64,000 nt of DNA, taken from positions 29,184,001-29,248,000 of the forward strand of contig CP086569.2 of the NCBI GenBank assembly GCA_009914755.4, read 5' to 3'. Every line of letters starts with the position of its first letter. Position 1 is the first letter of the stretch. Position numbers and translations under genes: made by a program. The notes under the pieces are model-generated. The model had not been told where the DNA came from and did no database searches. It saw only the letters and a program-made list of their open reading frames with translations. Of this stretch, positions 31,184-43,274 are shown in pieces. The stretch comes from the human T2T-CHM13v2.0 reference genome, Homo sapiens.

Positions 31184-33602
31184 CGTATGTTTGTGGGTGC
31201 CCTTTTTCCCATCTCATAACGTGTTTTAAGAAGCGCAGCCTAATAACTTGTGGGCTTGGGATTCAGTTCTTGAAACAAAACTCTGAGCCTTCAATGACCT
31301 TTCGGTCTATGTAAAAGCACTCCTGTCTTCCTGGCAGCAGTTGGACCTCACAATGTGGATTGTGCCCTCACCCAGCAATACTTATGCCCTATCGCCATGG
31401 TGACGGAATTAGGGGTCTCCTGCTCTTCGTCCTAACGACCACTGTCTGTGCTGTGTCTTTCAAAGGTCAGAAGAGAATGAACCTTTGTGGTTTTATTTTC
31501 CCTGAGTTTGCTTTTTCTCATGGGGAACCTGTGTTGCTGCTTTGAAGGTATATTCATACTGGCCTTTCAAATGCCAACTCTTCAAATTACTAGTTAAGGT
31601 TTTCAAAATATGTTATTTAAAAAATTATCCTCTGTATTTTCCATATGCAGTTATAAGTAGGTTTCATGGTTATGTTTTATTCCTCAGTTTATACATTTGA
31701 TTATTGTACCAAGCAGAGTACCTTTGAAATTTTTTTTCATTTAAAAAATATGGATCTTGGCTCAGGCCTGTAATCCCAGCAAATTTGGAGGCCAAGGCAA
31801 GGGGATCACAAGGTGAAGAGATCAAGACCATCCTGGCCAATACAGTGAAACGCTGTCACTACTAAAAATCCAAAAAATTAGCTAGGCATGGTGGCAGCTG
31901 CTGTAGTCCCAGTGTGGTGTAGTCCCAGCTACCTGGGAGGCTGAGGGAGGACAATCGCTTGGACCCGTGAGGCAGATGTTGCAGTGAGCAAAGATGGCGC
32001 CATTGTACTCCACCCTGTGCAACACGACAAGACTCTGTCTAAAAAAAATATTATATATGATATATATTACATGTTATGTGCTATGCCTTATATGTAACAT
32101 ATAACCTCATATATTTTATATGTCATAGTATATAATATTTATCCTGTGTCATCTTATATATACTATATATATTACATAACATATATAATATATAATACAT
32201 ATTATACATCTTATATATGAAATTATATAATTATAGATAACATAATACACATTTATATGTATTATGATATATAACAAAGGTACTATATCATATATGATAT
32301 ATAATATATATTTGTAGTACATATAATAATTTTTATATATTATAATTTATATAATGATATAATTTTTTATAGAATATAAAGGATTATATATGATTATATA
32401 ATTCTATATATTATAAATGAAAATATGTAGAATTACATGTTTATCTAGTTATACGTATAATAATATAATTATATATATAGTTATATATATCACATAATAG
32501 ACAACATACATATTATATAATGTATAATATATATTATAGAATATATGATACATGATATATATGATATTTAATATAACATAATATAATCTATATTATAATA
32601 TTATGTATGTTACTTATATTGGGTGATATGTAATATATGTTATGTAATATGAAATAATATAATATATATTATATTATGATATTTTATGTAAATTATGTTA
32701 TAAAAGTATATATAACATAATATATAGTTATATATAATATATTATATAGTTATATATATTATATTACATATTTACATAAAATATTATACAGTTATATATA
32801 ATTTCAAATATTTACATATAACAGAATATAAAACATAGAGAATACATATCATAAAATATATATTGTATACCATATATATTAGGTATCATATATTGTATGT
32901 TATATATCATATACTGTATATCATATATCATATATTATATGTTATATATATCACATTCCACATATTGTATATTATAAATTATTCATAATATATTGCATTA
33001 TTTATTTTACATGTAATAAATTATACATTATAGGTAACATAGTATATATTGTATGTAACCGGTATATTCTATGTAAAATATATAATATATAACACATGTG
33101 ACATGTAATTAATAACATAGTCATATAATATATATTTAAAATAGGTACTATACATACAACGTATTATGTATAATATATAATATATATTACGTATGTTATA
33201 AAATATAATATATATTATATGTCGCATTTCATATATACAATTATATATTATTATATGTTGTTTTATACTATATATAACATAGACATAATATATATATTAT
33301 GCATAATGGGTATTATATATAACAGATATATTATATATAATATATATAATGTATAATATATATTTAATACGTATATTAACCGTATAATATATTCTATATA
33401 TGATATATAACATATATTATATATGTCATAAATTATAATATATACTATATGTCATATTGTATAAATATAAAACTTATATATTATCAATTATTATATTTTA
33501 TACAATATATATAACATAAGATGCAGGATGTAAAACAATATTATACATTGGTTATATATATTATATATATGATACTGTATATTATTATATACATAATGTA
33601 TA
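31184..33602 (+). repeat. 2.4 kb composite unit U7 (2419 bp); subtype beta/T
   Basis: Phased as above; shares many private variants with U9 (cctaacgacc, caacacgacaag, atataataatttttat, ataaaggattatat, caaatatttacatataac, cataacgtg...aataacttg swap). Confidence 0.8.
31759..32048 (+). mobile_element. Alu copy embedded in unit U7
   Basis: As above. Confidence 0.9.
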
Positions 33603-40859: not shown

Positions 40860-43274
40860 CGTATGTTTGTGGGTGCCCTTTTTCCCATCTCATAACTTGT
40901 TTTAAGAAGCGCAGCCTAATAACGTGTGGTCTTGGGATTCAGTTCTTGAAACAAAACTCTGAGCCTTCAATGACCTTTCGGTCTATGTAAAAGCACTCCT
41001 GTCTTCCTGGCAGCAGTTGGACCTCACAATGTGGATTGTGCCCTCACCCAGCAATGTTTATGCCCTATCGCCATGGAGACGGAATTAGGGGTCTCCTGCT
41101 CTTCGTCCTAACGACCACTGTCTGTGCTGTGTCTTTCAAAGGTCAGAAGAGATTGAACCTTTGTGGTTTTATTTTCCCTGAGTTTGCTTTTTCTCATGTT
41201 GAACCTGTGTTGCTGCTTTGAAGGTATATTCATACTGGCCTTTCAAATGCCAACTCTTCAAATTACTAGTTAAGGCTTTCAAAATATGTTATTTAAAAAA
41301 TTATCCTCTGTATTTTCCATATGCAGTTATAAGTAGGTTTCATGGTTATGTTTTATTCCTCAGTTTATACATTTGATTATTGTACCAAGCAGAGTACCTT
41401 TGAAATTTTTTTTCATTTAAAAAATATGGATCTTGGCTCAGGCCTGTAATCCCAGCAAATTTGGAGGCCAAGGCAAGGGGATCACAAGGTGAAGAGATCA
41501 AGACCATCCTGGCCAATACAGTGAAACGCTGTCACTACTAAAAATCCAAAAAATTAGCTAGGCATGGTGGCAGCTGCTGTAGTCCCAGTGTGGTGTAGTC
41601 CCAGCTACCTGGGAGGCTGAGGGAGGACAATCGCTTGGACCCGTGAGGCAGATGTTGCAGTGAGCAAAGATGGCGCCATTGTACTCCACCCTGTGCAACA
41701 GGACAAGACTCTGTCTAAAAAAAAATTATATATGATATATATTACATGTTATGTGCTATGCCTTATATGTAACGTATAACCTCATATATTTTATATGTCA
41801 TAGTATATAATATTTATCCTGTGTCATCTTATATATACTATATATATTACATAATATATATAATATATAATACATATTATACATCTTATATATGAAATTA
41901 TATAATTATAGATAACATAATACACATTTATATGTATTATGATATATAACAAAGGTACTATATCATATATGATATATAATATATATATTTGTAGTACATA
42001 TTATAATTTTTATATATTATAATTTATATAATGATATAATTTTTTATAGAATATAAATAATTATATGTGATTATATAATTCTATATATTATAAATGAAAA
42101 TATGTAGAATTACATGTTTATCTAGTTATACGTATAATAATATAATTATATATATAGTTATATATATCACATAATAGACAACATACATATTATATAATGT
42201 ATAATACATATTATAGAATATATGATACATGATATATATGATATTTAATATAACATAATATAATCTATATTATAATATTATGTATGTTACTTATATTGGG
42301 TGATATGTAATATATGTTATGTAATATGAAATATTATAATATATATTATATTATGATATTTTATGTAAATTATGTTATAAAAGTATATATAACATAATAT
42401 ATAGTTATATATAATATATTATATAGTTATATATATTATATTACATATTTACATAAAATATTATACAGTTATATATAATTTCAAATAGTTATATATAACA
42501 GAATATAAAACATAGAGAATACATATCATAAAATATGTATTGTATACCATATATATTAGGTATCATATATTGTATGTTATATATCATATACTGTATATCA
42601 TATATCATATATTATATGTTATATGTATCACATTCCACATATTGTATATTATAAATTATTCATAATATATTGCATTCTTTATTTTACATGTAATAAATTA
42701 TACATTATAGGTAACATAGTTTATATTGTATGTAACCGGTATATCCTATGTAAAATATATAATATATAACATATGTGACATGTAATTAATAACATAGTCA
42801 TATAATATATATTTAATATAGGTATTATACATACAACGTATTATATATAATATATAATATATATTACATATGTCATAAAATATAATATATATTATATGTC
42901 GCATTTTATATATACAATTATATATTATTATATGTTGTTTTATACTATATATAACATAGACATAATATATATATTATGCATAATGGGTTTTATATATAGC
43001 AGATATATTATATATAATATATATAATGTATAATTTATATTTAATACGTATATTAACCGTATAATATATTCTATATATGATATATAACATATATTATATG
43101 TGTCATAAATTATAATATATACTATATGTCTTATTGTATAAATATAAAACTTATATATTATCAATTATTATATTTTATACAATATATATAAGATGCAGGA
43201 TGTAAAACAATATTATACATAGGTTATATATATTATATATATGATACTGTATATTATTATATACATAATGTATA
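40860..43274 (+). repeat. 2.4 kb composite unit U11 (2415 bp); subtype beta/T; carries a 5-bp deletion in its AT tail
   Basis: Phased as above; caatatatataagatgcagg at ~43185 where other units read caatatatataacataagatgcagg. Confidence 0.8.
41435..41725 (+). mobile_element. Alu copy embedded in unit U11
   Basis: As above. Confidence 0.9.

What the first reader, a model, noticed from the sequence alone, without database searches (positions are those of the whole stretch)
31184..43274. Local two-subtype alternation in the 2.4 kb array (U7-U11), implying a ~4.84 kb dimeric higher-order repeat
Units U7, U9 and U11 share the ORF variant cctaacgacc (T at residue 26). U7 and U9 additionally share at least six private variants (caacacgacaag, atataataatttttat, ataaaggattatat, caaatatttacatataac, atatgttatgtaatatgaaa, and the cataacgtg/aataacttg swap). 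The interleaved units U8 and U10 share a different set (ccctttcgcc = F at residue 10, tttcatgtaaatgatg, acatgatacat, tttgttgttttctac, attgtgcataatgg). ORF starts of like units are 4837-4839 bp apart. This is the footprint of amplification by two-unit unequal crossover. A second subtype pattern shows the alpha AT-segment variant in U1, U2, U8, U10 and U13 only.
Basis: seen in the sequence. Interest (0 to 1): 0.55.

Follow-up and report, generated by a model that had tools for sequence, protein, structure and literature searches.

The report
Two-unit duplication in human DYZ2 satellite
The alternating pattern is real but ordinary: one old duplication of two neighbouring 2.42 kb units inside a small DYZ2 (HSat1B) satellite array of the human Y long arm, made by a process already seen directly in families, not a true higher-order repeat.

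Summary
The window is human Yq12 heterochromatin. A 39.6 kb DYZ2/HSat1B array (15765-55366; 16 units of 2415-2431 bp) lies between two DYZ1/HSat3 arrays that face in opposite directions.

An exclusive U7/U9/U11 clade gets 0% support, because U11 is nearest to U12 (0.3% divergence). Only one of the five U8/U10 motifs is private to that pair.

The low-divergence stretch at a two-unit lag runs from about 31092 to about 35930, which is one 4.84 kb period. That is what a single tandem duplication of two units predicts (copies ~31092-35929 and ~35930-40767). Outside a later 1.2-1.4 kb gene-conversion patch the copies differ by 0.58%. The patch includes 1151 bp identical to a stretch five units away.

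Odd/even alternation is the best partition within U4-U11 but is absent across the whole array, and U11-U14 show single-unit duplications. This is a two-copy local duplication, not an established dimeric higher-order repeat.

De novo 2,416-4,839 bp whole-unit DYZ2 changes and frequent gene conversion are already documented in pedigrees. Interest is low.

The parts
1..15764 (+). DYZ1 (HSat3) array, left flank. It derives from (CATTC)n, has about 3.54 kb units and is 38-40% GC.
   Evidence: TRF finds pentamer-derived repeats, with a marker repeat every ~3.53 kb. There is one HaeIII site per unit, giving 3544-3549 bp fragments. The classic DYZ1 154-bp primer pair matches exactly once per unit on the + strand.
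15765..55366 (+). Complete DYZ2 (HSat1B) array: a diverged partial AT-rich unit (15765-16658) followed by 16 full units, U1-U16.
   Evidence: Unit anchors are 2415-2431 bp apart. The 16-unit consensus is 2420 bp. GC is 0.21-0.27. Both junctions were read directly.
31184..31757 (+). HSATI-like segment of U7.
   Evidence: CGTATGT, the reverse complement of the ACATACG junction motif of Hallast et al., starts each of U2-U16. The ORF has no Pfam hit. Its variable sites fall 5/8/6 by codon position, and the stop codon is lost in U10.
31758..32048 (+). 5'-truncated, roughly 20% diverged Alu segment of U7. The same segment is at 34177-34468 in U8.
   Evidence: blastn against an AluY consensus aligns positions 13-289 at 78.5% identity over 293 columns. 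An Alu-derived mir-1268 match lies at 31879-31945, below the gathering score.
32049..33602 (+). [quoted passage not shown]
   Evidence: TRF lists AT-rich short-period repeats here. Its boundaries follow.
31092..35929 (+). Copy 1 of the two-unit (4838 bp) tandem duplication, roughly U7+U8.
   Evidence: Lag-2 differences fall from 17 per 400 bp (30659-31058) to 1-4 per 400 bp, and rise again at 35859-36258. U7U8 versus U9U10 shows 52 mismatches and 2 one-base indels over 4837 bp.
35930..40767 (+). Copy 2 of the two-unit tandem duplication, roughly U9+U10.
   Evidence: Same evidence as copy 1. Bootstrap support is 99% for U7/U9 and 96.4% for U8/U10.
33149..34299 (+). Gene-conversion patch inside copy 1. 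It is 1151 bp identical to 21045-22195, five units (12104 bp) upstream.
   Evidence: This is the second-longest exact repeat in the array. 32 of the 52 mismatches between the dimer copies lie in 32997-34401. U3/U8 has 99.5% bootstrap support in that segment.
21045..22195 (+). Partner of the conversion patch, spanning the U2/U3 boundary.
   Evidence: Exact 1151-bp match.
23930..31183 (+). U4-U6. U4 (23930-26347) and U6 (28766-31183) are a second lag-2 pair at 0.7% divergence, while the U5 between them is unrelated.
   Evidence: U4/U6 has 100% bootstrap support and 8 private shared sites. A 742-bp exact match joins 24749 and 29585. The lag-2 tract is only about 3.2 kb, 23859-27058.
40860..50526 (+). 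U11-U14: the youngest layer, made by single-unit (2415 bp) duplications.
   Evidence: Exact matches of 1370, 1126 and 866 bp occur at lag 2415. U11/U12 differ by 0.3% and U12-U14 by 0.9-1.3%.
55367..64000 (-). DYZ1 (HSat3) array, right flank, inverted relative to the left flank.
   Evidence: GC skew is +0.56 here against -0.56 on the left. The primer pair matches on the - strand. Megablast gives 98.1-98.4% identity to the left flank on the minus strand.

Best explanation
The region is part of a small DYZ2 (HSat1B) array in the Yq12 heterochromatin of a human Y chromosome. One unequal exchange between sister chromatids, misaligned by two units (4838 bp), duplicated a block of two dissimilar neighbouring units. 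This produced U7-U8-U9-U10, with the junction near 35930 in the AT-rich tail of U8. The two copies then diverged to about 0.6%. A 1.2-1.4 kb stretch across the U7/U8 boundary was later overwritten by gene conversion with the U2/U3 boundary, or the reverse. Other exchanges of one or two units (U4/U6, U11-U14) and further conversions made the rest of the array a mosaic.

Shown here: the identity of the satellites, the clades, the tract length, the conversion patch, and the absence of an array-wide dimer. Inferred: that the event was a sister-chromatid exchange rather than replication slippage, and the age. The age is roughly 7,500 generations if 0.58% is divided by twice the published Yq12 rate of 3.86e-7 per bp per generation.
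For: **Identity**
- The DYZ1 primer pair matches exactly, convergent and 154 bp apart, once per ~3.55 kb.
- HaeIII fragments are 3544-3549 bp in DYZ1 and 2141-2157 bp in DYZ2.
- The unit is 2420 bp and tripartite. Its Alu segment is 291 bp at 78.5% identity. The ACATACG junction motif and the GC content match the published descriptions.
- Sixteen short contigs in unrelated 'bacterial' assemblies are 96.8-99.6% identical to the window consensus. This is the contamination signature reported for HSat1B.

**Duplication**
- The lag-2 tract length equals one period.
- Outside the patch there are 20 differences against 72 expected.
- The two pairs have equal divergence and 99% and 96% clade support.
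- The subtype-defining alleles are absent from the independent DYZ2 copies, so they are derived and local.

**Conversion**
- A 1151-bp exact match lies at a lag of five units, inside the mismatch cluster between the dimer copies.

**Process known from the literature**
- De novo Yq12 structural variants of 2,416-4,839 bp each affect whole DYZ2 unit(s), about one per Y transmission. 29% of de novo SNVs match non-orthologous Yq12 sites (PMC12240836).
- Unequal sister-chromatid crossing over has been proposed for DYZ arrays.
- Sister-chromatid exchanges in Yq12 were seen in about 15% of Strand-seq libraries.
Against: - The tract boundaries are resolved only to about 60-300 bp, because differences are sparse.
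- U4/U6 similarity without U5/U7 similarity is not explained by a simple two-unit duplication and needs an extra event.
- U11 and U12 share a few derived sites with U7/U9. This hints at an older relationship that the single-event model does not describe.
- The direction of the conversion and the kind of exchange cannot be read from one haplotype.
- Assembly error cannot be excluded from the sequence alone.
Confidence: 0.8

Rival explanations
1. A true dimeric higher-order repeat: an A-B dimer was amplified to three or four or more copies across U4-U11 and later partly erased by conversion and single-unit events.
For: - Odd/even is the best of 35 partitions of U4-U11.
- U4/U6 is a second lag-2 pair.
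- U5, U7 and U9 group at 78% in the middle third of the unit.
- U7, U9 and U11 share the T26 variant, and U7, U9, U11 and U12 share two more sites.
Against: - U5/U7 2.2%, U6/U8 2.0%, U10/U12 2.0% and U9/U11 1.6% are at or near background divergence.
- The strong lag-2 tract is exactly one period long, not two or three.
- There is no odd/even signal across the array.
- Two separate events, U4/U6 and U7-U10, explain the parity result equally well.
Confidence: 0.12
2. No duplication occurred. Non-reciprocal gene conversion between units two apart copied U7 onto U9 and U8 onto U10, or the reverse.
For: Conversion is frequent in Yq12. It is demonstrably present here as the 1151-bp identical patch at lag 5.
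Against: - A conversion tract would have to be about 4.8 kb long.
- Its length would have to equal the period by coincidence, with both ends at the same unit phase.
- The one clear conversion here is only 1.2-1.4 kb.
Confidence: 0.05
3. Assembly artefact: reads from a repetitive array were mis-joined, creating an apparent repeated dimer.
For: Yq12 is among the hardest regions to assemble.
Against: - The copies differ at 52 positions, spread in a structured way.
- Neighbouring units differ by about 2%, which long accurate reads resolve easily.
- An artefactual duplicate would be expected to be identical.
Confidence: 0.03

Closest known systems
DYZ2 / HSat1B arrays of human Yq12 (Rhie et al. 2023; Hallast et al. 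2023)
   Same: - The unit is 2420 bp, built from an AT-rich repeat, a 5'-truncated ~290 bp Alu about 20% diverged, and HSATI.
- GC is about 24%.
- It alternates with DYZ1.
- Edge units are more diverged than central ones.
- It evolves by unequal exchange and conversion.
   Different: - The array is small: 39.6 kb, against a published range of 11 kb to 2.2 Mb.
- Units differ by about 2% from each other, and only 3 of 16 are exactly 2420 bp, whereas 93.7% are genome-wide.
- The flanking DYZ1 arrays face opposite ways. This suggests a peripheral or inversion-boundary location.
De novo whole-unit DYZ2 structural variants in the CEPH 1463 pedigree (Porubsky et al. 2025, PMC12240836)
   Same: The changes span 2,416 to 4,839 bp, which is one or two whole units. 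The upper size matches the 4837-4839 bp spacing seen here.
   Different: Those events are new, arising within one generation. This one is old, with 0.58-1.1% divergence between the copies.
Alpha-satellite dimeric higher-order repeats (for example suprachromosomal families 1 and 2)
   Same: Two monomer types alternate. Like units are more similar to each other than to their neighbours.
   Different: Alpha-satellite dimers are repeated hundreds to thousands of times. Their monomers differ by 20-40% while whole repeats differ by less than 5%. Here there are two copies, and the contrast is 1% against 2%.

Membership tests
DYZ2 / HSat1B | Tandem unit of about 2.4 kb (2,413-2,420 bp) | tested here: met
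   Units are 2415-2431 bp and the consensus is 2420 bp. Published values are quoted.
DYZ2 / HSat1B | Tripartite unit: AT-rich simple repeat, 5'-truncated ~290 bp Alu about 20% diverged, and an HSATI segment of about 566 bp | tested here: met
   The Alu is 291 bp, aligns to consensus positions 13-289 and is 78.5% identical. The HSATI-like segment is 574 bp and the AT-rich segment about 1554 bp.
DYZ2 / HSat1B | ACATACG at the HSATI / AT-rich junction | tested here: met
   The motif is present on the minus strand at the start of U2-U16. It is not at the start of U1.
DYZ2 / HSat1B | About 24% GC, alternating with DYZ1 arrays | tested here: met
   GC is 0.21-0.27 in the array and 0.38-0.40 in both flanks.
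DYZ1 / HSat3A6 (flanks) | (CATTC)n-derived unit of about 3.5 kb with one HaeIII site, and the Y-specific 154-bp amplicon | tested here: met
   Fragments are 3544-3549 bp. Both primers match exactly, 154 bp apart, once per unit. The primers were recalled from memory and were not found in the paper library.
Satellite higher-order repeat (dimeric) | The multimer is repeated many times in tandem across the array | tested here: not met
   There are two full copies only. There is no array-wide parity signal.
Satellite higher-order repeat (dimeric) | Units one period apart are much more alike than units within a period | tested here: inconclusive
   The direction is met for U7-U10, at 1.0-1.1% against 2.1-2.5%, but the contrast is small. 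It is not met for U5/U7, U6/U8 or U10/U12.
Tandem duplication by unequal exchange | The similarity tract equals one period, both ends share the same phase, the size is a whole number of units, and divergence is equal along the block | tested here: met
   The tract runs from 31092 to about 35930, against a period of 4838 bp (2 x 2419). U7/U9 is 1.1% and U8/U10 is 1.0%.
Tandem duplication by unequal exchange | The exchange was between sister chromatids rather than replication slippage | not testable with these tools
   This rests only on the literature.

The most novel reading that the evidence does not exclude
The window may sit at one of the fixed Yq12 inversion boundaries, where suppressed exchange has preserved an old two-unit duplication. 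If so, this small array would carry a nascent, haplogroup-stable 4.84 kb DYZ2 dimer. That dimer could serve as a marker of the inversion junction, and as a rare view of how a higher-order repeat starts in HSat1B.
Probability: 0.1. Interest if true: 0.3.

Novelty: already known. Interest (0 to 1): 0.1.

Why it matters
It matters little beyond bookkeeping. The pattern is a clean small-scale example of how DYZ2 arrays change: whole-unit unequal exchange plus gene conversion. It agrees in size with de novo events already measured in pedigrees. Its practical value is as a set of local sequence markers (8 sites private to U7/U9, 8 private to U4/U6). These could be used to trace this particular array, and the nearby switch in DYZ1 orientation, across human Y haplogroups.

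Tried and rejected
- **Raw base autocorrelation.** Small indels shift the register, so peaks at 2420, 4837 and 7257 could not be ranked. It was replaced by alignment-based comparisons.
- **Whole-unit tree with an arbitrary unit phase.** It gave only 56-57% support for U7/U9 and U8/U10, because units defined that way straddle the duplication and conversion boundaries.
- **The 61-codon ORF as a gene.** It has a TTG start and no Pfam hit. No codon-position bias is seen (5/8/6). The stop codon is lost in U10. No gene with this product is on record for the U7 form or the consensus form. Rejected as a chance ORF.
- **Rfam.** The only match is a sub-threshold hit to Alu-derived mir-1268.
- **Paper search for the DYZ1 primer sequences.** It found nothing, so their source (Kogan et al. 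1987) rests on memory.
- **Contaminant contigs.** They are short and probably consensus-like. They show that the subtype alleles are not the Yq12 majority, not that they are absent elsewhere.
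Full report
**What the window is**

The window has three blocks.
- Bases 1-15764 are a (CATTC)n-derived satellite with 38-40% GC and a period of about 3.54 kb.
- Bases 15765-55366 are an AT-rich tandem array with 21-27% GC and a 2.42 kb period.
- Bases 55367-64000 are the first satellite again on the opposite strand. GC skew is +0.56 there against -0.56 on the left.

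The flanks are human DYZ1.
- The classic DYZ1 primer pair, recalled from memory (Kogan et al. 1987), matches exactly. The two primers converge, lie 154 bp apart, and occur once per ~3.55 kb. They are on the + strand on the left and the - strand on the right.
- HaeIII cuts these flanks once per unit, giving 3544-3549 bp fragments.

The central array is DYZ2/HSat1B as published.
- The 16-unit consensus is 2420 bp.
- Each unit has a 574 bp HSATI-like part, then a 291 bp 5'-truncated Alu at 78.5% identity to AluY, then about 1.55 kb of AT-rich repeats.
- The ACATACG junction motif of Hallast et al. sits on the minus strand at the start of U2-U16.
- Published values are a 2,413-2,420 bp unit, a 290 bp Alu about 20% diverged, a 566 bp HSATI, 24% GC, and alternation with DYZ1.
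- A conserved 32-mer found 16 short contigs in unrelated 'bacterial' assemblies. They are 96.8-99.6% identical to the window consensus over their whole length. This is the human-contamination signature that the T2T-Y paper describes for HSat1B.

**Checking the observation**

- The spacings are 4839, 4837 and 4838 bp.
- U7 and U9 share 8 sites found nowhere else.
- Four of the five U8/U10 motifs also occur in U1-U4, U13 or U16.
- The pattern restricted to U1, U2, U8, U10 and U13 holds at four AT-segment sites.

The lag-2 signal exceeds chance.
- 20 of 52 two-unit-only variants are at lag 2, against 6.1 expected. Only 533 of 100,000 permutations of unit order reach that number.
- It is 0% for an exclusive U7/U9/U11 clade. 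U11 is 0.3% from U12 and 1.6% from U7 and U9.

**What made the pattern**

Counting differences between each position and the position two units downstream shows a sharp drop at about 31092. There are 17 differences in 30659-31058, then 1-4 per 400 bp. The count rises again at 35859-36258. The tract is therefore one 4838 bp period long, with both ends at the same unit phase (31091 + 4838 = 35929). A single tandem duplication of a two-unit block predicts exactly this.

- U7U8 against U9U10 shows 52 mismatches and two one-base indels over 4837 bp.
- 32 of the mismatches cluster in 32997-34401.
- That cluster contains a 1151-bp stretch (33149-34299) identical to 21045-22195, five units away. This marks a later gene conversion.
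- Outside the patch the copies differ at 20 of 3432 positions (0.58%). The array's background rates predict 72 (Poisson P = 3.5e-13).
- At nearly all subtype-defining sites, the independent DYZ2 copies from the contaminant contigs carry the window's majority allele. The shared minor alleles are therefore derived and local, and they mark true sister units.

**Why it is not a higher-order repeat**

- Only two copies of the dimer exist.
- U5/U7, U6/U8 and U10/U12 are at background divergence (2.0-2.2%).
- The odd/even partition is best within U4-U11 but gives nothing across U2-U16.
- U4/U6 (0.7%) is a separate lag-2 pair, with a tract of only about 3.2 kb.
- The youngest events are single-unit duplications in U11-U14, with exact matches of 1370, 1126 and 866 bp at lag 2415.
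- Unit trees change from one segment of the unit to the next, as expected for a mosaic built by exchange and conversion.
- The array lies wholly inside the window, so the pattern cannot continue outside it.

**Comparison with what is known**

- Porubsky et al. found about one de novo Yq12 structural variant per Y transmission. The variants span 2,416-4,839 bp, and each affects whole DYZ2 unit(s). They also found that 29% of de novo SNVs match non-orthologous Yq12 sites, which they attribute to interlocus gene conversion.
- Hallast et al. attribute DYZ array dynamics to unequal sister-chromatid crossing over, and report diverged units at array edges.
- Altemose et al. note that satellite periodicities can arise hyper-locally.

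The finding is an instance of a documented process.

Dividing 0.58% by twice the published Yq12 rate (3.86e-7 per bp per generation) gives roughly 7,500 generations. This is a rough inference, because that rate includes conversion.

**The ORF**

The 61-codon ORF starts with TTG and has no family match. Its variation has no codon-position bias, and it loses its stop codon in U10. It is not on record as a gene product. It is useful only as a landmark.

**Verdict**

The two-unit exchange reading is supported. The label 'dimeric higher-order repeat' is not. Novelty: already known. Interest is low.

Noticed in passing
window 1-15764 versus 55367-64000; junctions at 15764|15765 and 55366|55367: The two DYZ1 flanks are inverted copies of each other (98.1-98.4% identity on opposite strands), while all 16 DYZ2 units face one way. 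One junction must therefore be an orientation switch. The junction phases differ by about 990 bp, so the structure is not a symmetric palindrome. The right junction falls exactly at the end of an AT-rich segment. [quoted passage not shown]
   Followed up: partly
window 15765-16658: The partial AT-rich unit at the left edge is far more diverged than any full unit. A unit phased to include it is 5.9-6.8% from all others and has 142 private columns, whereas the next full unit is 1.9-3.1% from the others. This fits the published pattern of old, diverged units at array edges. The right-edge unit U16 is not unusually diverged.
   Followed up: partly
L006:5897-6920 (NZ_HF570958.1, Nostocoides japonicum T1-X7) and L001-L016 in general: A 1024-bp DYZ2 piece (about 40% GC) sits between two 100-N gaps inside a 5.16 Mb RefSeq actinobacterial scaffold of 65-78% GC. 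Fifteen other species-representative 'bacterial' assemblies hold contigs that are DYZ2 from end to end. All of this is human contamination.
   Followed up: partly
window 1-15764: DYZ1 units in the left flank become less alike with distance: 97.3%, 96.8%, 95.7% and 92.7% identity at lags of 1-4 units. The last, partial alignment reaches the junction.
   Followed up: no
window 36304; 21499-23929: U9 has an extra HaeIII site that splits its 2.14 kb fragment into 2050 + 96 bp. U3 is 11 bp longer than the other units, at 2431 bp.
   Followed up: no
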